A DNA stretch of 64,000 nucleotides from Emiliania huxleyi CCMP1516 (lineage: Eukaryota): the NCBI RefSeq assembly GCF_000372725.1, contig NW_005202428.1, forward strand, positions 2,531,791 to 2,595,790. Reading direction: 5' to 3'. Under the pieces are notes generated by a model. It saw only the letters and a program-made list of their open reading frames with translations. It ran no database searches and was not told the origin of the DNA. This document shows, piece by piece, positions 1 to 63,500 of this stretch (positions within the stretch are counted from its first letter, which is position 1; each line of letters begins with the position of its first letter). The position numbers were made by a program, and so were the translations under genes.

Positions 1-2776
<2,776 letters not shown>

Positions 2777-3861
2777 GCTCCGTGCCTCGCCTCGCGAAAG
2801 ATCGTCGCGAGGCGTGGAGTGGCGTCAGAGCAGGGGACGCCGTGCGCCGCGAAACGGCCGACAAATCCAGATTTTTTTTTCAGCTTAGCCTTCGATGTTA
2901 TGAAACAACGCAAGGCGGACATGGCATATCGCTCTCGGGCCCACAGACATCCCGCACACTCGCCGCACACCCGCCGCCCCCGCGCGCGCCCCACCCCGGC
3001 CGGGAGAGAGGGGAGTGACAGTTTGGGACGGCGACAGCCCGAGTATGTTGAGTCCTGGCTCAACAACGCAGGGTTCAAGAGGGGGTGGTCCGGCTCACAA
3101 GTCCGGCTCACGCGCCTCGAGCTGACCATCTACCGCACTGAGCACTTCCGCCCCCTCGCTCCCAACCCATCCACCCCGCCCCGGGCCGCGCCGCGCGATC
3201 TCGGGCGATCTCGCGCTATCTCGGGCGATCTCGGGGCCGCGCCGCGCTATCTCGGGCGATCTCGGAGCGTCGCTCGCGCGGCGTCACACCTGCTCAAAAA
3301 GGAAGGAGGTTGGAGGCAGGAGGTCACGCCCCATCCAGAGCGCCGTCGTCGCCGGGTTTTTTTTTTGCTTTACTATCTAGATACTCGCGCGTTCCAAGCA
3401 AGTAAACTCCGACGCGCCCGTGTGGGGCGGCGCAACCGCCTGTATCGGCCCATACGATCGTGGTGTGATTCCCCTAATTAGACGATGTGATTTGAGATTT
3501 TTGCAATCCAAACAACTCAACCTGAGTTGGCAAGGTAAGGGGAATGAGGCTCGGAATGCGTTCTCAGAACGTTCAGAACACCGGCCGCTGGGCCCGCCTG
3601 AGGCGCTGAGACCCGGAGCCTCTCTCTCGGCACTAGCAGCAGACAGGCACAGGGACAGTGACGCGGCTCATCAGTCCTCCCTCAGCCCGACCTCGGACGG
3701 AAGACTAGGGATCCCTTATATAGATGTTAAGTGTGGGTTAAGAGGGAGATTCGCGCGAGCTGCGGGACCGCCGGGACGGCGGGCGGGTGATTGCGACTCG
3801 CCGCCGCTTTTGGCGACTTTTGGCGACTTTTGGGACGCGCGATCGACCGGCCGAGAACGAT

Positions 3862-5082
3862 ATGGCGGGTGAGGCCGTCACGGCCATGATCGTGGCTGAC
3901 GACGGCGGCGACGACCCCCTGGCGGACCGCCGCGAGGACCGGGAGGCGGCGGCGGAGCGGGAGAGGAAGGCGAAGGTGGCGAAGCTCAAGGCGCAGACGG
4001 CGAACGCGATGGAGGTGGTGCGGACGCAGCAGGCCGCGAAGGAGCGGGGAGCCTTCGACGAGGCGGCTCTCACTGCGAACGAGGTCGCGGGAGCGCCGGT
4101 GAAGGGCACCTCCGCCATGGTCAAGAGCATCTTCGATTCCCGACGCGATGGCAAAGATTGGAAGATGGTGCAGCGGCGCGAGCAGCGGAAGACCCAGACC
4201 GGCGCGGGCACTGCCGCGCAGGTTCTGGCGGGCCTGGAGACGGTGGCGGCGTCGGCAATGGAGATGTACCAGAAGGACGGCGCGGACGCACTCACGGTGA
4301 CGGATGCGCACGCGGTGCTGGTGAATGACGTGGCGCTGAAGCAGGGCATGCTGGCCATCTCGTCGAAGGCGAGGTCGAACTACCCGCAGTTCGTGTCGTG
4401 GCTGGCCACATTTGCCACGTTTGTGCAGTGCTTCTTCCCCTGCGGCTGGCGGCACAATTTGCCTATAGATGGGAGCGGAGGGAAGGCGATTGCCATCCAG
4501 CCGAAGCCGGTGGTGCTTTACCTGGCGATGGTTGCCAACGGCCTGGTGCCGATGGGCGGGTTCGTGTGCGACTTCGAGGACGGGTCGGCGTCGTTCGCTG
4601 CACGAGGGATGAAGGTGCCGCACTCGAAGAAGAAGCCGTCGGGCGGGAAGGACAACTTCACGATGAAGACGATCGACCTCTTTTTTGACGGGCTGAGCGG
4701 CTGGTCGCGCGCTCACAATGTGCTGGCGCCGCAGGACGACCCGGAGTGGAAGGTGATGATCAAGGCGATGAGGAAGGTGTGCAACGTGCGGCTGGATTCA
4801 AACCGGCCCTACAAGGCGGCGGCGCTGTGCCCGGTGACCGTGGCGTCGCTGATGTCGACCCTGTCGGTGACGAATGCGGGGGACGTGAACTTCGCCGCCG
4901 TGATGGCGCTGGGGCTGGCGTTCTGGATGCGGCCGAACGAGTGGTTTTTCCTCGACGTGGAGTGCTTGGCATTTGTGGAGATGCAAGGCATGGAGCTGCT
5001 GCACATCCTGTTTGTGATCTCGAAGGCGGACGAGTTCAGCTCGGGAGTCGTGCGAGGATCCCTACAAAGGTCGCAGGAATGA
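3862..5082 (+). pseudogene. C-terminally truncated tyrosine recombinase (phage-integrase family; Crypton/DIRS-type)
   Basis: Intronless ORF with a YR core-binding-like region followed by box I (AAVMALGLAFWMRPNE, catalytic R) and the SKxD turn (ISKADEF). It stops before any H-x-x-R or catalytic Tyr. Confidence 0.7.
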
Positions 5083-14989: not shown

Positions 14990-17024
14990 TCACCGGTTCG
15001 GCGCGATACCCATGTGCTTGAGCCCCAGCCCCGCCTTTTTGCGGTGGTCGCCCTCGAGGTGGCCCGGCTGGCCCTTGACGAAGACGACCCCGTTGCTCGA
15101 GTCGACGCGGTGCTCCGGCAGCCAGCCGACCTCGGCCAGCCACTTTGCGGCGAAAGTGTCGAGCGGCGTGAGGCAGGAGGCCCACTGCGGCACGGCGGAG
15201 AAGGCGGCGTGCAAGCGCGACGACGCGGCGGCCGGCCAGACGCGGTACCACTCGCGGCTCGAGTGCAGCTGCTCGTGCGTCATCTCCCAGAGCTCGAGCT
15301 CGAGCGAGGGCGGGCAGCCGCCGCGCGGCGCCGCCGACTGGCAGAAGCGGCGGGTCTGCGCGGCGAGCTCCGCCTTGTAGTGTGGCTGCAGCGGGTAGCC
15401 CGTCGCGCCGACGAAGGAGGGGACGGCGTTCTGCTGCCTCTCCATCGGGAAGAAGTCCTTGTGCAGGTTGCCTGTAGGGAAAGGAGCGCGTGGGTGTGGA
15501 ACAAGCACGGTGTGAGGGGGGGTGCTCTCCTCGTGTGCAGGGCGCCGATCATGTAGCCGTTGGTGTTGATCTCGACCAGGAAGGCGCGCCCCCGCTCGTC
15601 GAGCACGAGGTCGGGCGAGAGGAAGACGACGCGCTTGTACCGCAGCCCGGCCTGCTTGATCTTGTGGTCGACGTGCAGCAGCTGCTCGCGCGCGAGGAGC
15701 ATCACCTCGACCAGCGTCCGCTCCACGTTAGCCCACGCAACCTCCTTCCAGAAGCGCCGCCCCGACGGCTCCACGTTGTCGTACCAGTAGTCGTTTGTGG
15801 TCGAGGTGGGGTAGAGGCCCTTTTGCGGGGCGAGCACGTCGCGCATCCCGTCCGGGTCCTCGCGGCTGTAGTAGCAGTCGCTCGGGCCCGGGAAGAGGTA
15901 GTGGACGCACGGGTTCTTGACGTGCTTCGGGCTGCCGTCGTACTTCCACATCGACACCTTCGGGATGCCGGTGCCGTAATTACTAATTAATTCATTAATT
16001 AATTAATTAACATCGACACCTTCGGGATGCCGGTGCCGAGGAGGTGGAGGCGGAGCGGGTCGACGGAGAGGAGGACTGTCCAGAGGCGCAGGTCGAACTT
16101 GTGCCCCTTGAAGAGCATGGGCCGCATCACGTAGTCCTGCAGCACAAATTCGCCGGCGGGGATGCGCTGGACGAGCCACTGGCGCGTCGCCTCGTCCGAC
16201 GCGAGGTCCGCCTCGCCCAGCGAGTGCATGTGGATCCCGATCGCGTTGAAGCCGCCCTTGGGCTTGCTGATCCAGATCCGGTGCCGCGGGCCGCCCTCCC
16301 TGGCGCCCGCCCCGCCGGCCGGCTGCTGGTCCGCCATCGAGCCGAGGTTGAAGGCGCGGAAGTCTGCCGCCGCCTCGTACCGGCCCTTTGCGACGGAGAA
16401 GGCGCGCTTGGTGAACTGGCAGTGCCCGCCCTGCTGCGAGGAGGTCGCGCGGAGCGGGTCGTAGCCAAAGCGGCGAAAGCAGCGCTCCTGCAGCCGCGCG
16501 AGCGCGGGCTTGACGCCGAGCAGCTGCGGGATGCCGGGCACGGAGTTGATGATGCCGCCCTTTGGGTAGCGGCCTTTGCCCCGCGGAGGCGGGAAGAAGC
16601 GCGCCTCGTACTCCATCGGCTCGACCCACAGCATGTGCACCGGCCCGCCGTGCTCCGGCTCGCACAGGCCGGCGCGCTCAAACATCTTGCGGACCGTCCC
16701 GCGCATGTCGCCGCGCTGGCCGACGGCGAAGGAGCGGGTGCACCCCGTCGGGACGAGCGGACTCGCCTGGTGGGTGTGCGGCCACGGCGCGCCGCGCGGG
16801 CCCCAGTCAAAGGCGGGCGGCAGGGCTGACGTCCCGTCCGCCATCGTGAAGTAGGCGGAGAGATTGGCGGGGCGTCTGTAGTTCCGAGGCACGGCGTAGT
16901 TGTCCCACGGCAGCCGCTGGCCGTGCGTGGTGGTTCTAAACTCGACGAGGTCGGCCTGCTCTACGTGGCTGGCCACACGCGCGCCGCTCGGCAGCGCCGG
17001 CCTGGCACGGTGGCGAGCATCCAT
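14990..17024 (-). CDS. Tubulin-tyrosine-ligase-like (TTL/TTLL, ATP-grasp) protein, 3 exons
   Basis: WISKPKGGFNAIGI, FVLQDYVMRPMLFKGHKFDLRLW and PDLVLDERGRAFLVEIN motifs. Start codon uncertain. Confidence 0.85.
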
Positions 17025-17359: not shown

Positions 17360-20300
17360 ATGCCGGCCTCCACCGCCGTGCCGTGCTGCCCGAACCGCCA
17401 TGCGCTCAAGCCCTTCGTCACGCCGCACGACCGCTTCAACTGCGACCTCTGCGGCGACGACCAGCCCAAGGGTATCGACATGCGCGGCTGCCGGATCTGC
17501 GAGCACGACGTGTGCGGCAAGTGTTCGCCGCCGGTGGACGTGCCGCTGGACGTGGCGGACGCCGACGCGGAGATCGTCGAGGTGTGTCCGTCGGGCCACC
17601 CGCTCGAGCCGTTTGCGATGGAAGACGAGTTTGGCGAGTGCGACCTCTGCGGGTGTGACCAGCCCGAGGACGCGCCGATGCGCTCGTGCAGAATCTGCGA
17701 CTTCGACGTGTGCCAATCGTGCACCGCGAACCTCGCGCCGCGGCCGCGCGCCGCAGCCGTGCCGCCCGTGCCCGTCGTCGAACGGTCGGATGACATCCGC
17801 AAGCCTGCGATCGACGGCCGCTCTTACCGGTACGTCAAGCTCCCAAACGAGCTGCGGATCGTGCTCGTGTCGGACGGAGAGGCGGACAAGGCGGCGGCCT
17901 CCCTCGACGTTGCCGTGGGACACGCGTGCGACCCTCCGGAGCTGCCAGGCCTCGCCTCCCTCTAATGATTAAGACCTCATCACTAATAATTAATCATGAA
18001 TTAAGCCTCCGGAGCTGCGAGGCCTCGCCTTCATGAATCACTACTGGAACGCATGCTCTTGGCGACTCAGCTGACTCAGCTGGCGATTGTTTGGTCGCGA
18101 GCAGGCCTCGCCCACTTCCTGGAGCACATGCTCTTTCTCGGGACTGCAAAGTACCCGGACGAGGACGACTACACCACCTTCCTCGCGCAGAACGGCGACG
18201 CCTCCAGCTCGCGCGACACCGCCCGGGAGAACGGAAGGATGACTTGACAGGTGGCTCCTAGGCGGCGCCTCCAACGCGTACACCGCCTTCGAAAACACAA
18301 ACTACCACTTCGAGGTGCTGCCCGCGCACCTGCCTGGCGCTCTCGACCGCTTCGCGCAGTTCTTCATCGCGCCGCTCTTCACGGAGAGCGGCGCGAGCCG
18401 CGAGAGGTCCGAGAGGGAGTGCACTTGATGAGCCGGCGGCGGGTGGCTCCTCAGGAGGGCGCGACGGGGCGCGAGCTCAAGGCGATCGAGTCGGAGAATG
18501 CAAAGACGGAGTCTGCTCCGCCGGCTCCTCCTCGCCTCCTTCTCCTGAAGGGGCCTCCCCTCTCTCTCCTAGGCGGACAGCCTCCCGGCCGACACCTGTC
18601 AGCCAATGTCGGGGTGTCTGAAGACGAGTCCTCGATCAACAGGCGAAGAACCTCCAGTCAGACACCTGGCGGCTCGCGCAGCTCACTCGCTGGGCAGCGC
18701 CGCAGCCCGCCGCACTACGCAGCGCTTCACAGCCTCCCTCTCCTCGGACGGGGGCGCCTCCTCCGTGTCTAGGCTGCGAGCCCGGAGCACCCGCAGCACA
18801 AGTTCGGGACAGGCGACACCGATGTGACTCTCCACTCATCACCCCATGCTCGTCACCGTTGCTCGGATGGAGACGCAGGCAACATGGAGACGCTGCGTGA
18901 CCTCGCCGCGCGTCCAGTGACGCTCGACCTGCGGCCAGCTCCCGGCGGCTCCTCTGCTGCCGGCGGCGGCGCGGTGCGCGCGCGGCTCGTGGCGAGCTGC
19001 AGGCCACCCGAGTAGCAGTGGCAGCGATGGAGTGATGGTCCTGATGACAAGAGCCCCACCGCAGTACGCCGCCTTTCCTTGAGGCATGACTCCCCCGCTG
19101 CAGCTTCACAGCTAGAGGTGTGAAGAGACGCTATTCACAGCCTCATTTGAGCATGACTCCCCCGCTGCAGCTTCACAGCTAGAGGTGTGAAGAGACGCTA
19201 TTCACAGCCTCATTTGAGCATGACTCCCCCGCTGCAGGCCGCCGCTGGCCATCCGCGACGCGCTCTTCGCCTTCCACCAGCGGCACTACTCGGCCAACGC
19301 GATGCGGCTCTGCGTGGTCGGCAAGCAGTCTCTCGCCGAGCTCGAGCAGCTCGTGCTGCCGCTCTTCTACCCCATCCCAAACATCAACCGCCCGCCGCCC
19401 GCCTGGCCGGGCGAGCGCTGACCGCCTCCCACGCGGCGAGGCCTGTTGCTGCTGTCGCGAGGTCTGCCCCCCCACCTCGCGTCAGGCGAGCCATATGCCT
19501 CGACCATGCGGCGCGCGCTCGTCAACGTTCCTGTCCGGCAGCTGCGCCTGCTGACGGTCCTGTGGCCGATGCCTCCGATCCGGCAGCTGTGGCGCTCCAA
19601 GCCGCACCGGTACATCTCGCACCTCCTCGGGCACGAGAGCGAGGCTGTGAACAGCGTCTCTTCACACCTCCAGCTGTGAATAGGTACATCTCGCACCTCC
19701 TCGGGCACGAGAGCGAGGGGTCGCTCCCCTCGCTCCTCAAGGGGCTAGCTTCACACCCCAAGCTTCACACCCCTAGCTGTGAATAGGTCGCTCCTCTCGC
19801 TCCTCAAGGGGCTAGCTTCACACCCCAAGCTTCACACCCCTAGCTGTGAATAGGTCGCTCCTCTCGCTCCTCAAGGGGCTAGCTTCACACCCCAAGCTTC
19901 ACACCCCTAGCTGTGAATAGGTCGCTCCTCTCGCTCCTCAAGGGGCTAGCTTCACACCCCAAGCTTCACACCCCTAGCTGTGAATAGGTCGCTCCTCTCG
20001 CTCCTCAAGGGGCTAGCTTCACACCCCAAGCTTCACACCCCTAGCTGTGAATAGGTCGCTCCTCTCGCTCCTCAAGGGGCGCGGCTGGGTCGACTCGCTC
20101 TGCGCCGGCGAGTCCGTCTCCGCCTCCGACTTTGCGATGTTCGAGGTGCAGATGGCCCTGTCGGAGGAGGGGGACGGCAAGGTGGACGAGATTCTGCTCG
20201 AGCTCTTCGCCGCCGTCAACATGCTCCGCGCCCTGCCGCCGGCTCGCTGGGCCGTCGACGAGTGTTGCTACTTGGACGCGACCGCTGATGAGTTGCGCAT

Positions 20301-23300
20301 CGACCGGTAGGCGCGGTGGGTGTTTGAGGAGTGCTCCTCGCTCGCCGAGATGGGGTTCCGGTACAAGGAGCAGGACGAGCCGATGGACGCCGCAAACTCG
20401 CTCGCAACCTCGCTCGAGCACCACCCGCCCGCGGACGTGCTCTCGGCGCCGTACCTGCACCAGGTACCAGGCCCCAGGAGCAAGACTCTCAGCACTGAAT
20501 CAGCCGTCCCTTCTCGACTCGTCTCGGACGCACCCCTACCCGACGCGCTCTCCGCACCCGCTTGTAGGAGTTCGACCCGGCCGCCATCGAGGCGATGCTC
20601 GCCCTGCTCACGCCAGCGCGCGTCATCACCCTCCACTCCTCCCGCTGCGTGGCGGCGGCGGCGCCGTACCGCGAGCCGTGGTACAACACACCCTTCGGCG
20701 CCGCGCACGCCTCGGTTGGACCGCGCTTGCTGGTCTCCCTTTGCCGCACGCGTCTCTGTCCTTCTTTTGTGTAGGCACCGCGCACATCTCGGACGAGACT
20801 CTCGAGCGCTGGGCGGCGGCGAGCGCCGAGGGGGGGATGCTGCGGCTGCCGGACCCAAATCCGTTCATACCGACCGACTTTGGGCGCGACATAGCCGAGA
20901 CATAGCCGAGGTATAGCGAGGCCATAGCCGAGATAAAACCGAGATACACCCGAATTTTCGTCCATCCCGACTGGCCTTGGGCCCGCTTGCGGCCCAGCGC
21001 GCCTCGACGCTCTCTCTCGGGAGGTAGCATTTCCGCTCTCCGCAGGCTGGTGTGTGACAGCGCGCCGGGCGGGGCGGAGGCGCTGCCCCGGCTGCCGACG
21101 CGGCTGCTGGATGAGGTGCGCGTCGCGAGCGGTGGCACGAGGCTGAGGCGAGGCTGAGGCGAGATTGTCCGAGATTAGGCTGGCGTTGAGCTGTGGCACA
21201 AGACGGACGCCACGTTCCGCCGCCCAAAGACGAACATGTGGATGGCGCTGCAGCTCTCGCAGGCGTACGCGACGCCGCTCAAGGTGGGGAGGAGACGTCG
21301 CTCACTGCCACGGCCCTTCTCGCTGTCACTCTTCTGGTTGTTGCGGCGCCCTCCTCCAGGTGGTGATGACGTCGCTCTTCACGCGGCAGTTGTCGGACGA
21401 GCTGACCGAGTTCTCCTACCACGCCGAGGTGATGATGAGAAAAGAGTCACAACAACAACAACAACATTTGCATTCACATTTACATTTACATTCACATTTA
21501 CATTTACAACCACAACGACAGCGACAATCCAACAATAGGTGGCCGGGCTGCACTACCGGGTCCAGTCGAGCAACGGCGGCCTCACGATCCTCTTCGGCGG
21601 ATTCTCGCACAAGCTGCCCGCGCTTAATGAATGACGAATGAGCATTAGTTCATCATTGCTTAGGCGGGTACTCGCACAAGCTGCCCGCGCTGCTGCAGCG
21701 AGTCGTCTCCAAGCTCGCGGAAACTCGCTCGGCCGCGGGAGCGCCTTTGCCCTTCTTCTTTGGACGCACGCGCTTTCCTCTCTCAGGCGCCCGACCTGGC
21801 CGCGGAGCGGTTCGCCATACAGCGCGACAACGTGCGGCGCGGCTACGCGAACTTCTTCAAGGAGGCGCCGCGCCAGCACGCTCTCTACCTCGCTTGCGGG
21901 AGAACGGAGACGTGAAGGCCGAGCTGTGTTTCTTTTGTTGCAGGCGCCGTACCAGCACGCCGTCTACCTCGCCTCGGTCCCGCTCGCGCGGGTGTCGCCG
22001 AATGTCGACGACGGACTGACGGGCGAGGGGTGGTGCTAACTAGGTCCTGCTCGAGGTGCGGCGCCACCACATCCTCGACTACTACCGCGAGGTGGTGGAG
22101 AGCGGCTCGCTCGACCTGGACGAGTACCGAGCCTTCGTGACGGGAGAGCTGCTCGCCTCGTCGCGCATGCTCGCCCTCTGCCACGGCAACGCCTCGGCCG
22201 AGCAGGCGACAGAGACGCGTCCCCGCCGCCCGACACGTCCACGGCACGGCCCATGACACGTCCACGACACGCCGCAGGCCGGCGAGATGGTCGCCGCCGC
22301 CCGGGCCGCCATCGGCTCCAAGCCGCTGAGCTGCGACGAGAGGCGCGAGTGCGAGTCGATGTACCGCGCGCTCGTGCTGCCCGCGGACAGCGAGGTGTGG
22401 GTGCGGCAGCACCCCTCCACGCTGCCCGAGGACCAGCGGCTGCTCGCCAACGCCGACGAGACCAACTCGGCGATTGAGGTCTTCCTGCAGGCCGGGGTCG
22501 ACGAGCGGCCCCGCACGATGCTCGTCGAGATGCTCGAGCAGGCGAGATGACCCGAGATTCGCCCGGGATCGCCCAGGATGATCGCCCGAGATCGCCCGAG
22601 ATCGCCCGAGATCGCCCGAGATCGCCCGAGAGCCATCCTGCAGGTGCTGCACAAGTGCGCCGAGCAGCAGCTGCGCACGGTCGAGCGGCTTGGCTGCGTC
22701 GCGTGGAAAAGCGCATGGCTGCGGGTACAGACGAAGAGAGCTGTGAGTAGGTCGAGCAGCTCGGCTACATCGTGTGGTGCACCTCTCGCTTCACCTACAA
22801 CACGGTCGGCCTCCGCTCCACCCGCCCCGCGGTCGCGCACCAGTCATACTCACAGTCGTGAAAGCATAGGTCGGCCTCCGCTTCATCATCCAGTCCGCGG
22901 TCGCCTCGCCAACCACCCTCGACGAGCGGATCGAGGCCCTTCCTCGAGTCGGCGCCCGCCCCGCTGCATGGGTACTCCTATTGAGCAGCTGGTGGTTTGG
23001 TGTTCATAGGCTTTCCTCGAGACGGCGCCCGCGCTGCTGCGCCACTTCTCCAAAGACGGCGCCTTGAGTGGCTCATGAGTGAGTGATCAGGTGCCCGCGC
23101 TGCTGCGCGACCTCTCCGAGGTCGACTTTGCAGACTACCGCCAGGCGCTGGTGGAGAGGAAGCTCGAGGTGGACAAGAAGCTGCGGCAGGAGACGGCCCG
23201 CTACTGGCGCGAGACGACGCTGCAGCAGCGCGGCAGCGCGGCCGGGAGCGACCTCACGTCCGGCCCACGCCGCCATAGGCACGAGATGACGCCGCTGCAG

Positions 23301-23653
23301 CAGTACGATTTTGACCGCAACGAGCGCGACGCCGAGGCGGTGCGCGCGCTGACGCAGCCGCAGTTGGCCGCCTTCTGGGACGCGACTTTGTCGCGCGCTT
23401 CGGGCGCGCAGCAGCAGGCACCCTTCCGAGCCTGTGAAGAGGTGTGTGAGGAGAGGCGTCCACGGCACGCCCCATAGGCGTGCGGCGCAAGGCGTCCTTC
23501 CAGGTCTTCGCGCCGCATCTCGAGCTGCCGCCGCCGCCCGACGGTGTCGTGTGCCTCGACACGATCGAGGCGGTGCAGCAGTTCAAGAAGTCGCTCTCCG
23601 CATGGCCCGGCGTGCACGAGGAGGGGGGCGGCGGAGACAGCCTCCAGAGCTGA
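17360..23653 (+). CDS. IDE: Insulysin / insulin-degrading enzyme (peptidase M16A) with two N-terminal Cys/His-rich repeats, many introns
   Basis: [24 protein letters not shown], inverted zinc motif [57 protein letters not shown] and [11 protein letters not shown]. Stop TGA at 23651-23653. Confidence 0.92.
19085..19236. repeat. Intronic tandem repeat, 67-nt unit x~2.3, containing the inverted GCTGTGAA/TTCACAC cassette
   Basis: CATGACTCCCCCGCTGCAGCTTCACAGCTAGAGGTGTGAAGAGACGCTATTCACAGCCTCATTTGAG repeated. Confidence 0.9.
19610..19683 (+). other. 74-nt GT-AG intron of insulysin whose 5' part duplicates the next exon
   Basis: Removal gives in-frame [15 protein letters not shown]. The first ~34 nt equal the exon start at 19684. 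Confidence 0.85.
19720..20054 (+). repeat. Intron made of exactly five 67-nt GT...AG units
   Basis: Unit GTCGCTCCTCTCGCTCCTCAAGGGGCTAGCTTCACACCCCAAGCTTCACACCCCTAGCTGTGAATAG; 5 x 67 = 335 nt. Removal restores [13 protein letters not shown]. Confidence 0.9.
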
Positions 23654-24073
23654 GGCGGGTGTCCCGTGTCCGGTCCCCGTGTGCATTCAAAAACGCTGCC
23701 CGTCCGATGAAGGCTCTGCGGGAGTGGGGGCTCACGCGCCCCCCCCTGTTGTAGTGTTCTCTCTCTGATGAAATAAAGAAGAGTCAAGACGCTGCGCGCT
23801 CAGTCCTCAGACGTCAGAGAGCATGAATGATGCGCGACTTTCCGTGACGTCTCAGCGACCGCGCGCCGGAAAAGCAAAAGGTGTATCCTGAAGCTGAACA
23901 CCTGTGTTGCATGTTAGTGCCAGTGCGCGCCAGTCCCGTGCCCAGTGTCGTGCGAGCGAGGGAGTTTTGTTGTAAAATTCTTGCCGCTTTTCGTGTACGG
24001 CTGTGCGTGTTCGAAAATTCTTTTCGCCGTGACATATAGGAGGAGGGCGCGACATTCCTTGCGCTGGCCGCCA

Positions 24074-31402: not shown

Positions 31403-33611
31403 ATGGCCAAGTCGGTCCAGGCGTCGAGGATGAGGCCTCCCCTCTCTCCGCAAGCCTTCGTCGCGCAGTCGCGCGCGGCCTTCCTCGCCGGTCCGTCGGC
31501 CGGCGCCACCGCCTCCGCCACAGTCTGGGTGGGCAACGTCGCGGGTGACCTCGACACCATCGTGTCTGCCGTCTGTGCAGCCTACTGCCGGCAGGTGCAG
31601 GGCGCCGAACCGGCCTCACGGCAGCACGTGCCGCTCGTGCCCTTCCCGCGGCCCGATTTTCGGCTGCGGCAGGACGCGTGCCTCCTCTTCCGCCACTGCG
31701 GCTTTGACTTTGACTCCGAGGGCGCCGTGGAGAGCCTCCTCTACTTTCCCGACGAGGCGGCGGCGCCGGCAGAGGCGTGGCGCGGCGCGGGCGCACTCTC
31801 GGTGGCGCTGACCGACCACAACCGGCTGGCGGAGCACTTTGCCGCCTCGCTCGGCGATGTCGTCGTCGAGGTGATCGACCACCACAGCGACGAGCGCGCG
31901 CACCTCTCCTCGTCCGGAGGCGCGCGGCTGATCGACACCTCTGCCGGCGCATCCGCCTCGCCCCCCGGCAGGACCGAGGCCTGGCGCGAGGGACGCGAGT
32001 GGCGTGAGGCGCAGCCTTGCCTGCCGTAGGCTCCGCCTGCTCCCTCGTCTCTGAGCTGCTCCCGCCCGACCCGCCGCACCTCCTCTGCGTGCTGCTGCTC
32101 GGCGCTATCGCGGCCGACACGCGCGGCTTCGACGCGGCGCAGCAAAAGTTCGTCGGGCGCGACGTGGCGGCGGTGCGGCGGCTGATGGCGCTGCTGTCGG
32201 CGGCTGATGTCGGCGGCGGCGGCGAGGCGGGAGAGGCGGGTGCGGGAGAGGTGGGTGCGGGAGAGGCGGGCGTGGGGAGAGCGGAGGTCGAGGCGGCGGC
32301 AGCGGACTTGCGCGGTGCGGCGCTTCCGGCTGCTGCGGCGGTGGGCGGCGCGGCCACGTTCGGCGAGCTGGCGGCGAGGCTGCTCGACGCGCGGTACGAC
32401 GTCTCCTCGCTCGACGTGCACGACCTGCTCCGGCTCGACTACAAGCAGGCGCCGAGAGGACCCGAGAGGACCCGAGAGGACCCGACCCGAGAGGACCCGA
32501 GAGGACCCGAGAGGACCCGAGAGGACCCGAGAGGACCCGAGAGGACCCGAGAGGACTGCTCCGGCTCGGCTACAAGCAGGCGCGGCCGGGCGTGGGGCAG
32601 GGAAGGGGCAGGGTCGGGGCAGGGTCGACGATGGGCGTCCGAGAGCACCTCGCTGCAGCCTCTCCGAAGCTACACAGCACTCTCCGAAGCTACACAGCAC
32701 TCTCCGAAGCGTGCCGGCCTCTCCCCAGGCGCGCGCGGGCGAGCTGGAGGTTGGTGTCTGCGCCGTCTTTGTGCCCCTGCGCGAGCTGATTGCGAGGGCG
32801 GGCGGAGGCGGTGCGCTCTCCGCGGCGATGGCGGCATTTGGCGCGCTTCTCTCCTCCACCGCCTCTCCTCCCTGCCGCCTCTCTCCCCTTCTCCGCCGCC
32901 TCTCCCCGCCATCGCCGCCTCCCTTCCACTGCTTCCTCCGCTACCTCGCATCTGCTCCCCTCGCGAATGATTCCTTCGCGACTGCCCCTCCCCTGTGGTA
33001 CCTCCCCTGTGGTGGCGCCGCACCCTTCTCCGGACGCGTCCACGACACGTCCCGCGGCACGACTGCAGGCGGGCGGAGCGGTGTCGACGTGCTGTTCGCT
33101 CTCTCCGCCGAGGACCGCGCCGCGGGCGGGTCGGGCCTCAAGGGGGTCAGTGTGGTGCCCCTCACCCCAGGGGGGAGAGGCGCGGCGGCGGCGCTCGCGT
33201 CAGCCCTCGAGGCGGCGCCGGAGGGCCTCCCCCCCTCGCTCGCCTCGCAGCCCCTCTTTGTCAAGCAGCAGCTCGGTGGGCAGAGAGATGCGCGGAGAGA
33301 GGCCGCTTGGAGCGAGAGAGCTGCTCCGCCTCACCTTGCTCTTTACACGCGGGCACAGCCAGCGCCGCCCGGGCCGCTGCCCCTGCGCCGCCGCTGCCCC
33401 TGCGCCGCGGCACGCCGCACGACCCGCAGCCCCGTGGCGCCGCCTGTCCGCAGGGACCGACGGGTTTGGCATCGGGTTTGAGGACGCCGACGCCGCCTCC
33501 GGGCTGCGCGTCTCGCCGCTGCGCAACGCCGTCTCTCGCAAGACCTTCCTGCCCACGGTGCTGCACTTTGCGGAGCAGCACCAGCAGGCGGCGTCGGGAC
33601 GAGGGTGTTGA
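31403..33611 (+). CDS. Exopolyphosphatase Prune/PPX1 (DHH family), multi-exon
   Basis: GNVAGDLDTIVSA, LTDHN, VIDHH, VGSACSLV, AIAADT, LRLDYK and SRK motifs. Confidence 0.88.
32455..32555. repeat. Intronic 10-nt tandem repeat (GAGGACCCGA)n
   Basis: Read directly; bracketed by a duplicated exon end CTGCTCCGGCTCG(A/G)CTACAAGCAGGCGC. Confidence 0.9.
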
Positions 33612-42933: not shown

Positions 42934-43152
42934 GGGTTTAGGTTAGGGTTATTAGGGTTAGAGGGTTAGGGTTAGGGTTAGGGTTAGGGTTAGGGTCAGG
43001 GTAGTCTGGTTGTGTCTGTATATGCCAGCGTTGCAGGGTTCTGCGCTGGTATCTGGCCCCACAGCGCCGACGACTAAGACTCAGCCCCACACGCTCTGAC
43101 CTAGGGTTAGGGTTAGGGTTAGGGTTAGGGTTAGGGTTAGGGTTAGGGTTAG
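42934..43152 (+). repeat. Interstitial telomeric (TTAGGG)n tracts, two blocks
   Basis: GGGTTA arrays at ~42934-43001 and 43102-43152, each followed by a related ~95-nt spacer. Confidence 0.92.
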
Positions 43153-43243: not shown

Positions 43244-43730
43244 CCACCAAATGCCGCCTCAGGGCGCCAGGCCGCCAGCCACCTCCTTACACGCGGCCGG
43301 CGCCCTCTCGCGGCAAAAGGGTCGAGCGAGCGGGCAGAGTCGCGATGTCTGCGCACCCGCGTGCCGATGGGCGGCACACGCAACCGAGAGAGGCCCTGTC
43401 ACGCCGCCAGTAGCGTTCTCCGCACTCCCCACGCCACCAATTGCCGCCTCAGGGCGCCAGCCACCTCCTTACACGATTACACGCGGCCGGCGCCCTCTCG
43501 CGGCAAAAGGGTCGAGCGAGCGGGCAGAGTCGCGCGATGTCTGCGCACCCGCGTGCCGATGGGCGGCACACGCAACCGAGAGAGGCCCTGTCACGCCGCC
43601 AGTAGCGTTCCGCACTCCCCACGCCACCAATTGCCGCCTCAGGGCGCCAGCCACCTCTTACACGCGGCCGGCGCCCTCTCGCGGCAAAAGGGTCGAGCGA
43701 GCGGGCAGAGTCGCGATGTCCCTGCGCACC
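43244..43730. repeat. ~190-nt tandem repeat x~2.5
   Basis: Units start CCACCAA(A/T)TGCCGCCTCAGGGCGCCAG at 43244, 43434 and 43624. Confidence 0.9.
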
Positions 43731-60501: not shown

Positions 60502-63500
60502 ATGCGCGGGGCCGCGATCAGGGCACTCGTCGCAGCAGCGACGACATTCCCTGTCGGCGCCGGCTCGCGCGCTTTGAAGGACAAGGATGATGCCGCCCTT
60601 TTGCCGCTGCCCGCCTCTCCTTCTCCTCAGGCACCTCCTACACTGAGCTGCGCATCGGTCTCGTCCTGCGCGGGTCTCGATCTCCTGGCTGGAGCGGTCC
60701 TCTGCACCGACCGAGGAGAGTGCCGGCCACAGGCTGAGGCCGACTGCGGCAGCGTCTGCTTCGTCCCGGCGGCCTGGCCCATCGCCGAGAGCGGCAGCGG
60801 CGACGCCGGAGCGGAGCTTGCGCCTCGGCCAGCGGCCGAGGCAGCGGAGCCCGCCGAACCCGCGGAACTGGCCGGCGCGGCGGCGGAGTCGGGCGGGGCG
60901 GAAACGAGCGCAGAGGCAGCGGACGCAGAAGCAGAGGCGGTGACGGTGGTGGAGGCGGTGGAGGCGGTGGAGGCGGAGGCGGTGGAGGCGGAGGCGGTGG
61001 AGGTGGACCCGGCGGAAGAGCCTGGGCCCGGCGAGGCGCACGGCGAGGCGGAGAGCGAGCCGCAAGAGGAGGCGCAGCCGCTGCCGCTGCCGCAGCAGCA
61101 GCAGCAGCAAGAGCATCACGCGTCCGAGGCGCAACGGCACTCGCCGGGCCTCGGCGAGAAGGTGTGCAAGGCGAAGGCGGGCCTGGTGCACTGCTGGCTC
61201 GCCGGCTGCGTGGCCGAGTGCTCCAGCGAGATCGCGCCCGCCCTCCTCCTCCTCCTCATCGTCGGGATGTCTGCGCACACCTTTGGCTCGCTGCTGTCCG
61301 GGCTGGGCTTCCCCGCCATCACCACCTTCCTCTTCTTCGGCGTGGTCGCCGGTCCGTACGGCACAAACATCGTGTCCGCCGAGGAGGCGGCCAAGCTCAC
61401 CTGGCTCAACAATGTTGCCCTCGGCTTCATCGGCCTGTCTGCGGGCGGCAAGCTCCACCTCAACGAGGTGCGCGAGAACCTGTCCGCCGCGCTGAGCGTG
61501 CTCGGCGGGCTGGTGACCGTCACCTACTTCGGCTCCATCACGACGACGCTGCTCTTCGGACACATCGTACATCTCGCACCTCCTCGGGCAGGAGAGCGAG
61601 GCTGTGAACAGCGTCTCTTCACACCTCTAGCTGTGAATAGTTCCTCCCCTTCCTCGTCGACGTCACGCTCAACGATAAGATGTCCGCCGCGCTGCTCATC
61701 GCCTGCCTCGCGGTCGCTCGCTCGCCCTCCTCCGCCATCGCAATCATCGAGGAGCTGCACGCCAAGGGCCCCTTCACCACCACCGTCCTCACCGTCACCG
61801 TGCTGATGGACGTGGTCGTCGTGCTGCTCTTCGCGCTCACGCAGCTGGTGGTGAGCTCGCTGCAGGAGGGCGGCGCGGGCGAGGGCGGCGCGGAGGGCGG
61901 CGGAAGCCTGCTGCTCGAGTTCGTGCAGCAGACCCTCCTCTCGGTCGTGCTCGGTTGCCTGATCGGCTTCTCGATGCCGCTCATCTACGCCTGCCCCATC
62001 CCCGAGCCAGACCGGCGAGAGAAGGGGTGGCGCGGTGCGCTGGCCTCCTCCCTCTGCGCCTGGTCGCAGCCTGCCTCTCGAGCCCCCCCTACCTTCTCGC
62101 AGGCGCGCTGGCCTCCTTTTTCCGCGCCACCGTCGGGGTGCTCCTCTCGGTGGCGCAACGGACAACCCTCCTCTTCACCGGGTTCGCCCTCTTCTTCGAC
62201 GAGCGGTACGAGGAGGTGACGGCGGGACGCGCGGCGATCAACCCGCTCGTCTGCTGCATGGTTGCCGGCTTCGTGACGAGCAACCTGACCGCGGGGGGCC
62301 ACGCCTTCCACGAGGCGGTGACGGACCTGTCTGGCCCGATCTACCTCCTCTTCTTCACCTTCACGGGCATCACGATGGACCTGGGCGTGCTGTGGCGCAA
62401 CCGCTCCGCCTGCATCCTCCTCTTCGGCTCGCGCTCCGTCTTCATCGTCCTCGGCTCGCGGATTGGCGGCCAGCTCGGCGGCCAGCCAGCCGAGTACTAC
62501 AACCGCTACTGGATGTCCTTTCTCACTCAGGCGGGCGTCACGCTCGGCCTCGCCCAGTCGGTCGCCCCCCACTTTGTGTGGGGCCCCGACTTTGCGGCTT
62601 GCATCGTCGCGCTGGTCGTGTGCAACCAGATCGTCGGCCCGCCCCTCTTCAAGCACGTCATCAAGCTCGTCAACGAGTCCAACATCGGGTACAACCCCGC
62701 GGAGGTGCCAAAGACTGGCTACGGCCCGCGGATCCGCAACCTCGGCAACGTCAAGAACTCGTCGCTCGGCAAGCCCAAGCCGCGCGGCGTGCTCTGCATC
62801 AAGAGCGCCGACTCGCCCCTCGGCGAGGCGATCACGCGCCGGCTGCGCGAGCTGCAGTGGGAGGTGCTCGTCGCCGACGAGACCTTCTCGCTCAACACGA
62901 GCGTGGACGAGTCGGAGCAGCTGGAGAAGCGCTCGCGCTACAACATCATCGGCCTGCCCGACGAGCTGCAGCGCGAGCTCCTCTCCCGCGAGGGGGCGCA
63001 GGGCATGCCGATCAAGCCGTGGGAGAAGCTCGTCGCCCACCGCTCCATGCCAACCATGCCAAAGCTCCCAATCTCCGAGAGAGACCTCTGGGGCGGCTCC
63101 CCCGTCGTCGCCACGCCGCGGCGCCGCGCCGACGAGGCCCTCCCGTCCGGCTGGGAGCAGCGTCTCTTCACACCTCGCCTGTGGACAGGCGCAGCCCCGA
63201 CCAGGCCCTCGCCGCCCTCCACTCGCGCGGCTTCGGCTCCAACCCGCTCGAGCGGTCCCGGATGCTCGCCTCGAAGCAGCTCGGCTCCGACGCCGTCAGC
63301 TTCGCCGCCGCTGCGGCGCGCACGCCCTTGCCCCGGCTCGACCTCGGTCGCTTCGACGTCGAGTCCGGCGAGGGGCAGGTGCTCGGCTCGCGGCGGACGC
63401 AGATGCCGCAGCGCAGCGGCTCGGTGCGGCGGGCGAGAGCTTCCCTTCAGCGTTCCGGCGCGTCTTCACGGCTGCACGTGTGAGCAGGTGCGGCTGACAG

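What the first reader, a model, noticed from the sequence alone, without database searches (positions are those of the whole stretch)
17940..23280. Pervasive 'echo' introns: intron 5' ends are decaying copies of the downstream exon start
Seen in insulysin: 19610-19683 (perfect ~34-nt echo); 19720 (25-nt echo); 21597-21663 (GC-AG, GCGGATTCTCGCACAAGCTGCCCGCGCT vs exon GCGGGTACTCGCACAAGCTGCCCGCGCT); 21865-21943 (GC-AG); 22680-22750 (27 nt, 5 mismatches vs VEQLGYIVW codons); 22805-22869 (13 nt perfect); and further cases near 22937, 23025 and 23207. Similar echoes occur in PKA, Prune and the sulfotransferase-like gene. The range from perfect to decayed suggests continuing production. Inference: introns arise by duplication of an exonic segment beginning GT/GC plus filler supplying an AG, or exon sequence is repeatedly written over intron ends. 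Either could help explain the high GC-donor frequency, since the donor is simply the first bases of a GC-rich exon.
Basis: partly seen in the sequence, partly recalled or inferred. Interest (0 to 1): 0.85.

Follow-up and report, generated by a model that had tools for sequence, protein, structure and literature searches.

The report
Self-copying intron tails make new introns
In this Emiliania-type alga many introns begin with a copy of the next exon's first 15-45 bases, and the youngest end in one shared 40-base piece found at dozens of unrelated sites, so new introns likely arise when the tail of an existing intron is copied into a break that duplicates the target, which would help explain this alga's many introns and unusual GC splice signals.

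Summary
Confirmed and extended. In a 29-intron insulysin gene (Emiliania huxleyi or a very close relative), 18 of 29 intron 5' ends match the downstream exon start above the 99th percentile of mismatched pairs; the 3' side does so in 1 of 29. The two youngest echo introns end in a ~40-nt module that occurs at 74 distinct sites in metagenome contigs; 59 of 74 carry their own locus-specific echo (median 30 nt, intron median 69 nt). Antisense insertions keep the same geometry, so the echo is a long, variable target-site duplication that donates the GT/GC donor, and the module donates the acceptor. The module has a fixed 3' end, a ragged 5' end with microhomology, and clusters locally. Insulysin intron 9 was also copied whole (72/74 nt, exact GT-AG ends, no duplication) into an antiporter gene 42 kb away. 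A 74%-identical relative lacks introns 1-10. Likely mechanism: break repair templated by intron RNA; DNA-templated repair is the main rival. E. huxleyi introner families are listed in published supplements with duplications unresolved; the scan noted a similar 15-nt footprint in another haptophyte.

The parts
17360..23654 (+). Insulysin (peptidase M16) gene with N-terminal Cys-rich repeats; 30 exons, 29 introns (donors GC 18, GT 9, GA 2)
17949..18104 (+). Intron 1, two stacked units: a 25-nt duplication across the exon 1 end with AT-rich filler (period 73), then an 8-nt echo with other filler
18195..18261 (+). Intron 2, GC-AG, decayed 29-nt echo
18384..18454 (+). Intron 3, GA-AG, decayed 21-nt echo
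19084..19237 (-). Module inserted antisense into the 3' end of intron 7 with a 20-25-nt duplication of the acceptor region; two 67-nt units
19610..19683 (+). Intron 9, GT-AG: perfect 35-nt echo (19610-19644) plus the module
19644..19683 (+). The ~40-nt mobile intron tail (module); the same 11-nt near-palindrome at both ends; supplies the acceptor
19720..20054 (+). Intron 10: five head-to-tail 67-nt units, each a 26-nt echo plus a module variant ending in AG; L092 holds two units
20698..20774 (+). Intron 13, GC-AG, 18-nt echo
21597..21663 (+). Intron 18, GC-AG, 28-nt echo plus AT-rich filler
21865..21943 (+). Intron 20, GC-AG, 29-35-nt echo
22206..22277 (+). Intron 22, GC-AG, decayed echo, 11-nt repeat filler
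22680..22750 (+). Intron 24, GT-AG, 27-nt echo with five transitions
22805..22869 (+). Intron 25, GT-AG, 13 perfect nt, ~32 with gaps
22936..23009 (+). Intron 26, GC-AG, 32-nt echo that runs across the 15-nt exon 27 and fits the genomic continuation (score 34) better than the spliced one (29)
23025..23090 (+). Intron 27, GC-AG (exon starts GT), 27-nt echo
23207..23278 (+). Intron 28, GC-AG, 23-nt echo
23404..23477 (+). Intron 29, GC-AG, decayed 24-nt echo
61567..61640 (+). Whole copy of insulysin intron 9 (72 of 74 nt, with the insulysin-derived echo) in a cation/proton antiporter gene; exact GT-AG ends, no target duplication
63121..63188 (+). Older intron of the same gene with a decayed module and a 22-nt echo
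15948..16038 (-). 29-nt duplication around AT-rich filler (period 62); both splice sites lie in the duplication
   Evidence: sequence
1608..1712 (-). PKA: 38-nt duplication across an acceptor around AT-rich filler (period 67)

Best explanation
The echo is a long copy of the insertion site, and the youngest echo introns share one 40-base intron tail, so these introns are likely gained when a staggered DNA break in a gene is repaired with the 3' end of an existing intron, probably its RNA, as template. Steps: (1, inferred) two nicks 15-45 nt apart open the target; (2, inferred) synthesis starts at the donor intron's AG end and stops after 34-56 nt, sometimes inside the donor's own echo, rarely after the whole intron; (3, shown as pattern) the ragged end joins through 1-6 nt of microhomology and gap filling duplicates the target; (4, shown for this gene) if the duplication starts G-T/C and the total is about 60 nt or more, the first copy serves as donor and the module as acceptor, so splicing restores the coding sequence exactly; (5, shown) the intronic copy decays towards G+C, and the flanking repeats let whole units expand or contract; (6, inferred) each new intron can be the next template, mostly nearby. 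AT-rich and 10-11-nt repeat fillers with the same geometry are likely other products of the same repair. I put the first tier (echo = target duplication at intron gain) at about 0.85 and the RNA template at about 0.55 given that.
For: 59 of 74 distinct module sites carry their own echo above the largest of 400 mismatched pairs; 72 of 74 have G after the AG. Echo median 30 nt, 15 of 59 perfect, 43 of 59 at least 90% identical; introns 59-83 nt. Opposite-strand insertions keep the module's AG end against a 30-45-nt duplication: L066 (WD40) and L010 (aminotransferase) by Pfam, L084 by eye and codon score; so does the copy inside intron 7; in these four the 3' end lies within 2 nt of the AG although splicing does not need it (read). 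Non-echo part 34-56 nt. Junction overlap mean 2.3 nt in the 23 of 43 direct junctions vs 0.73 simulated. 31 pairs share sequence reaching into another site's echo vs null mean 2.5, maximum 10. Exact whole-intron copy at 61567-61640, present also in L062; its removal aligns gap-free with 26 of 29 homologs; L031 carries the unit of L101. 11 of 81 loci hold a further separate copy, all in the same orientation. P0003 (74% identical, on a 51-kb contig) is unbroken over introns 1-10. A 70-nt duplication-plus-filler unit is in L023 and not in L070. Old echoes: A/T to G/C at 31 of 125 sites vs 13 of 323 the other way, no excess at third codon positions (15/25/12), so the intron copy is the one that changed.
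Against: No exonic empty allele of a module intron was found; gain rests on one clearly genomic relative. 15 of 74 sites have no significant echo and 16 of 59 are under 90% identical beside a perfect 26-nt core, so some modules look younger than their echoes, which a single step does not explain. 27 of 29 insulysin intron tails have no family in the ~260 kb examined (those loci were picked by the module), so the mobile-tail route is shown for 2 of 29 and only inferred for the rest. In two antisense cases 1-2 extra bases (G, GC) follow the AG, which fits a pre-mRNA or DNA template as well. Echo 26 fits genomic better than spliced sequence. No enzyme was identified. The annotation-free scan is only modestly enriched (window 0.80% at AG|G vs 0.13-0.38% at other dinucleotides). 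The 31 shared pairs could partly reflect microhomology choice instead of descent.
Confidence: 0.5

Rival explanations
1. Same intron gain, but the template is DNA: microhomology-mediated end joining (polymerase-theta type, recalled) at staggered breaks copies nearby intron DNA or makes filler anew, and splicing selection keeps the products that end in AG.
For: Microhomology, local clustering, nine AT-rich fillers of unrelated sequence between 18-38-nt duplications, extra G after AG in antisense cases, L031 with similar bases on both sides of its foreign unit, echo 26 fitting genomic DNA.
Against: Gives no reason for the 3' end to sit at the AG in four unselected insertions, nor for the exact GT-to-AG copy without flanking homology at 61567.
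Confidence: 0.27
2. Overwriting: the introns are older, and repair from spliced mRNA or cDNA writes the downstream exon start over their 5' ends, while the module spreads separately among intron 3' ends by conversion.
For: Sense bias (47 of 59); echo starts exactly at the junction; 22 of 56 echoes follow an AG and 15 a YAG, some of them existing acceptors; perfect modules beside decayed echoes; echo and non-echo lengths trade off (total SD 4.0 vs 8.9 if independent).
Against: Antisense and intronic insertions with the same geometry cannot come from the host mRNA; P0003 lacks introns 1-10; a minimum intron length near 60 nt also gives the length trade-off.
Confidence: 0.11
3. A non-autonomous mobile element moved by a dedicated enzyme (transposase, recombinase or rolling-circle nuclease) that recognises the 11-12-nt near-palindrome at both module ends.
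For: The terminal motif is both a direct repeat and, being near-palindromic, an imperfect inverted repeat (sequence); introners with donor taken from the duplication are known (10.1101/2020.10.14.339549).
Against: Duplication length varies from 14 to 44 nt and the 5' end is ragged; reported introner duplications are 3-8 nt; same geometry with unrelated fillers.
Confidence: 0.1
4. Chance similarity of GC-rich DNA, selection for splice-site similarity, or assembly error.
For: 65% G+C genome; five-unit array differs from L092.
Against: Null tests; independent contigs L062, L092, L093 reproduce the window's sites with at most 6 mismatches.
Confidence: 0.02

Closest known systems
Introners that carry the 3' splice site and take the 5' splice site from the target duplication (Symbiodinium; Polarella classes 4-6, 8, 10; 10.1101/2020.10.14.339549, parts 1-2 of 4 read; 10.1101/2022.06.06.494994, passages)
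   Same: Donor G-T/C/A is the first copy of the duplication, acceptor is the element's end, downstream exon starts with G, both orientations can give introns.
   Different: There 3-8-nt duplications of fixed length per class, many with inverted ends; here 14-44 nt, variable, making up nearly half of the intron, with a ragged 5' end and pieces of other introns' echoes.
E. huxleyi introner families in the supplements of Gozashti et al. 2022 (PMC9860276, rows seen: 653 elements; families of mean length 37 and 70; TSD '?' or 'N') and 2025 (PMC12130899, rows seen: 5-45 members; TSD 2, 4 or NA; one note '10bp terminal direct repeats', 'co-opt 5' carry 3'')
   Same: Same organism, similar lengths; probably overlap with this family.
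   Different: Identity not shown (no sequence match in the stored 2022 file, which is cut). No long duplication reported; Emiliania is not named in either main text.
[quoted passage not shown]
   Same: Filler between direct repeats from staggered ends.
   Different: There short repeats and unique filler; here long repeats that supply the donor and a filler family that spreads.
Tandem genomic duplication of an AGGT-bearing exon segment (PMC3443670, passages)
   Same: Exon sequence duplicated into the intron; fits L066, L084 and window 15948-16038, where both sites lie in the duplication.
   Different: Foreign filler lies between the copies, and in most cases the acceptor is not duplicated.
Intron transposition by reverse splicing and fungal introner-like elements (PMC3443670, 10.1101/2022.06.06.494994, passages)
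   Same: Fits the exact whole-intron copy at 61567.
   Different: Most copies are 3' halves with long duplications, some antisense; no unusual folding.
Target-primed reverse transcription of non-LTR retroelements (recalled)
   Same: Fixed 3' end, 5' truncation with microhomology, variable duplication.
   Different: No tail, no promoter, no partner element found; duplications longer than usual (recalled).

Membership tests
Introners (broad sense) | Sequence-similar introns at many non-homologous sites | tested here: met
   74 distinct sites share the 3' ~40 nt; similarity covers only about half of each intron
Introners (broad sense) | Removed by splicing without changing the coding sequence | tested here: met
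   introns 9 and 10 against P0009; 61567 against 26 of 29 homologs; not tested for the other sites
Introners (broad sense) | Recent gain: empty sites in relatives | tested here: inconclusive
   P0003 unbroken over introns 1-10; no empty exonic allele in the same species among ten locus pairs
TIR/MITE DNA-transposon introners | Short duplication of constant length | tested here: not met
   14-44 nt among 43 well-kept echoes
TIR/MITE DNA-transposon introners | Terminal inverted repeats at two fixed ends | tested here: not met
   5' end ragged, 34-56 nt; only a near-palindromic motif at both ends
Non-LTR retroelement / SINE | Fixed 3' end, truncated 5' end with microhomology, variable duplication | tested here: met
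Non-LTR retroelement / SINE | A-rich or simple-repeat tail; RNA-derived head | tested here: not met
   module ends in AG; no Rfam match in 19000-20200
Non-LTR retroelement / SINE | Partner element with the same 3' end and a reverse transcriptase | not testable with these tools
   needs the whole genome
Tandem genomic duplication (AGGT model) | Both splice sites from the duplicated segment, no foreign sequence | tested here: not met
   3'-side similarity in 1 of 29; filler present
Fungal introner-like elements / reverse splicing | Whole-intron similarity, no duplication, sense only | tested here: not met
   met only by 61567 and perhaps L031; antisense copies exist
Fungal introner-like elements / reverse splicing | Stable RNA structure (recalled feature) | tested here: not met
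   z -0.7 to -1.8 for four sequences
Break-repair intron gain | Filler between direct repeats, microhomology at a junction | tested here: met
Break-repair intron gain | Dependence on an end-joining pathway | not testable with these tools
   needs mutants or induced breaks

The most novel reading that the evidence does not exclude
Ordinary spliceosomal introns breed without any transposase: excised intron RNA patches staggered breaks in nearby transcribed DNA, the long target duplication builds the donor half, each daughter can found further daughters (leaving a readable pedigree in captured echo pieces), and now and then a whole intron jumps exactly into an unrelated gene, as at 61567. Most introns of this alga, and its GC donors, would come from this chain.
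Probability: 0.35. Interest if true: 0.92.

Novelty: new variant of a known kind. Interest (0 to 1): 0.78.

Why it matters
How spliceosomal introns arise is a long-standing question, and most gains leave no trace of source. Here each young intron records its target (the echo), its donor (the tail, sometimes with a piece of the donor's echo) and its age (echo decay), so direction and order of gains can be read from one genome. The copy at 61567 has a provable direction, because it carries conserved insulysin coding sequence into an antiporter gene. The model offers a cause for the 56-65% GC donors reported for E. huxleyi (PMC4028052, which ascribes them to G+C content) and for poor gene models: P0001 keeps several echoes as coding sequence. 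Introner screens that need whole-intron similarity or look for short duplications would undercount this kind.

Tried and rejected
No whole genome is held, so no genome-wide count. Run search: no RNA holder listed; all 12 runs are guessed RNA. The module pattern found 0 matches in viral contigs. Folding gave no unusual stability; no Rfam match. Tails of 27 of 29 insulysin introns found no family in the DNA held. Idea that old echoes come from a diverged paralog or cDNA: rejected, no third-position excess. First coordinate set was out of frame and was corrected. Ten locus pairs gave no empty exonic site, only unit-number and intronic differences. P0002, P0012, P0013 are also unbroken over many of our intron positions but lie on 2.9-4.4-kb contigs that may be transcripts, so they were not counted. 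Two 14-nt module motifs were not found in the stored 2022 supplement, which is cut; files 13 and 14 of the 2025 supplement were not searched. Ten literature searches listed no paper describing long exon-start duplications in Emiliania introns; the library lacks most subscription papers, and the E. huxleyi genome paper and Huff et al. 2016 were not seen. Scan look-ups by words and by sequence found nothing relevant.
Full report
Setting. The window is 60-73% G+C. Exon 1 of the gene is 99% identical to an Emiliania huxleyi CCMP1516 protein, so the organism is E. huxleyi or a very close relative (inference). I built a 30-exon model of insulysin, 17360-23654, that reads as one frame of about 1150 aa. 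P0009 (98% identical, aa 326-1150) agrees at junctions 7-29 after one 3-nt shift, and P0002/P0003 align without gaps at junctions 1-10. Contigs of four runs, which the tool only guesses to be RNA, join across introns 11, 12, 17, 29, and two runs across 20/21 and 26/27; most of the joint table was not shown.

The observation. All cited echoes are present, with small corrections. Scored from the third base on, 18 of 29 intron starts exceed the 99th percentile of 812 mismatched pairs, 20 of 29 the 95th percentile of 870 random CDS positions; the mirror test at the 3' side gives 1 of 29. The donor dinucleotide equals the exon's first two bases in 24 of 29 (p 7e-5). Five of ten contig-defined introns in two neighbouring genes pass the same bar. 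An annotation-free scan is less sharp: 21 of 2640 AG|G sites vs 0.13-0.38% at seven other dinucleotides. In the 18 echoes, 40 of 52 substitutions are transitions, A/T to G/C at 31 of 125 sites vs 13 of 323 the reverse, with no third-position excess, so the intron copy decayed.

The filler is mobile. The tail of intron 9 recurs five times in the window within 3 mismatches, chance 0.01. A 26-nt core matched 103 metagenome stretches. Of 119 matches including the window, I dropped 6 without a near acceptor, 9 without flanks, 11 inner tandem units and 19 duplicates, leaving 74 sites, two of which are the window's own. 59 of 74 have an echo of their own downstream sequence above the largest of 400 mismatched pairs; 72 of 74 have G after the AG. 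Echoes have median 30 nt, introns 59-83 nt; 15 are perfect and 43 at least 90% identical. The shared part is about 40 nt; the non-echo part is 34-56 nt. In 23 of 43 well-kept cases echo and module join directly, with mean overlap 2.3 nt against 0.73 simulated; in 20 of 43 up to 16 extra bases lie between. Such extra bases often match the end of another site's echo: 31 pairs against a null mean of 2.5, best case 13 nt into the echo of L009 in L077; part of this could be microhomology instead of descent. 11 of 81 loci hold another separate copy, all in the same orientation.

Insertion, not only overwriting. A codon model (150 of 169 test pieces right) scores 47 of 59 sites as sense and 5 clearly antisense. 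L066 and L010 lie opposite to a WD40 and an aminotransferase gene, L084 likely so; in L066 and L084 both splice sites can be read within the duplication. The window's copy inside intron 7 is also reversed, with a 20-25-nt duplication. In all four the module's AG end touches the duplication within 2 nt. Host mRNA cannot template these. P0003, 74% identical and on a 51-kb contig, is unbroken across introns 1-10. A 70-nt duplication-plus-filler unit is present in L023 and absent in L070, two assemblies that may be of one sample, at an intron's 5' end. Nine units have AT-rich filler between 18-38-nt duplications.

A whole intron moved. 61567-61640 matches insulysin intron 9 at 72 of 74 bases, including 35 bases of conserved insulysin coding sequence, inside a cation/proton antiporter gene; it has exact GT and AG ends, no duplication, and its removal aligns without gaps in 26 of 29 homologs. 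L062 holds it too. L031 carries the unit of L101.

Against and unexplained. No empty exonic allele was seen. 15 of 74 sites lack a significant echo and 16 have decayed echoes beside a perfect core, so the module may also replace tails of older introns. Only introns 9 and 10 of insulysin have a tail family in the DNA I hold. Echo 26 fits genomic sequence better than spliced. Echo and non-echo lengths trade off, which a minimum intron length can explain but does not prove. No enzyme is identified.

GC donors. Among 56 non-antisense echo sites the first bases are GC 27, GT 23, GA 6, the six GA all after YAG. G-dinucleotides in the insulysin CDS are GC 43%, GG 23%, GA 20%, GT 13.5%. So availability gives many GC donors, selection enriches GT, and T-to-C drift adds GC (2 of 25 GT-exon sites). 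PMC4028052 (passages) reports 56-65% GC donors and ascribes them to G+C content.

Mechanism. Shown: locus-specific long duplications, a shared tail, fixed 3' and ragged 5' end, microhomology, both orientations, local clustering, decay, unit expansion, one exact whole-intron copy. Inferred: staggered breaks, the template being intron RNA, the chain of donors, and extension to older introns. I favour RNA-templated repair (0.5) over DNA-templated end joining (0.27), overwriting (0.11) and a dedicated mobile-element enzyme (0.10).

Known systems. It works like introners that carry the acceptor and take the donor from the duplication (10.1101/2020.10.14.339549, parts 1-2 of 4; 10.1101/2022.06.06.494994, passages; PMC11282704, passages), but fails the fixed short duplication and fixed ends of the transposon type. 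Supplement rows list E. huxleyi families of mean length 37 and 70 with TSD '?' or 'N' (PMC9860276) and small families with TSD 2, 4 or NA, one noted for 10-bp terminal direct repeats (PMC12130899); they may overlap this family, which I could not show. The classical gain models are from PMC3443670 (passages). Features of target-primed reverse transcription and polymerase theta are recalled. Ten searches listed no description of the long echo; unseen supplements and subscription papers may bear on this. An unchecked scan note, e1-2577349, reports a 15-nt footprint of this kind in another haptophyte.

Verdict. Real; a new variant of introner-type intron gain with unusually long target duplications and a directional case of intron transposition. 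Interest 0.78.

Noticed in passing
window 22542-22643 (intron 23) and P0013: A 69%-identical relative's frame breaks off exactly at this position, and this intron has no echo: it may be an older, shared intron.
   Followed up: partly
window 19720-20054; L092; L063 vs L030: Whole echo units vary in number (5 vs 2; one extra 68-nt unit); real variation or short-read collapse. The same repeats would allow exact intron loss.
   Followed up: partly
L030, L088, L021, L079, L048, L057: All 6 echoes that start with GA follow CAG or TAG, suggesting they lengthen an existing intron instead of acting as donors.
   Followed up: partly
window 18384 and 21720: Two GA donors in insulysin (introns 3 and 19).
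   Followed up: partly
window 17360-17740: Three Cys-rich ZZ-like repeats are fused in front of insulysin; P0002 has a similar N-terminus.
   Followed up: no
window 19610-20054, 61567-61640: The window's module copies share the rarer acceptor variant seen in 6 of 74 sites, in line with local spread.
   Followed up: partly
L072: Two stacked module units whose 5' parts match neither each other nor the downstream exon; possible foreign echoes, as perhaps also in L001 and L100.
   Followed up: no
window 42941-43152 and 43244-43715: Internal TTAGGG arrays beside a 190-nt tandem repeat.
   Followed up: no
window 3860-5060: Intron-free frame on the + strand ending in motifs that look like a tyrosine recombinase (recalled), possibly a mobile-element remnant.
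   Followed up: no
window 659-760, 909-1001, 32425-32582: Copies of the upstream exon end sit inside introns of PKA and Prune, 65-125 nt from the original, around 10-11-nt repeat filler.
   Followed up: partly
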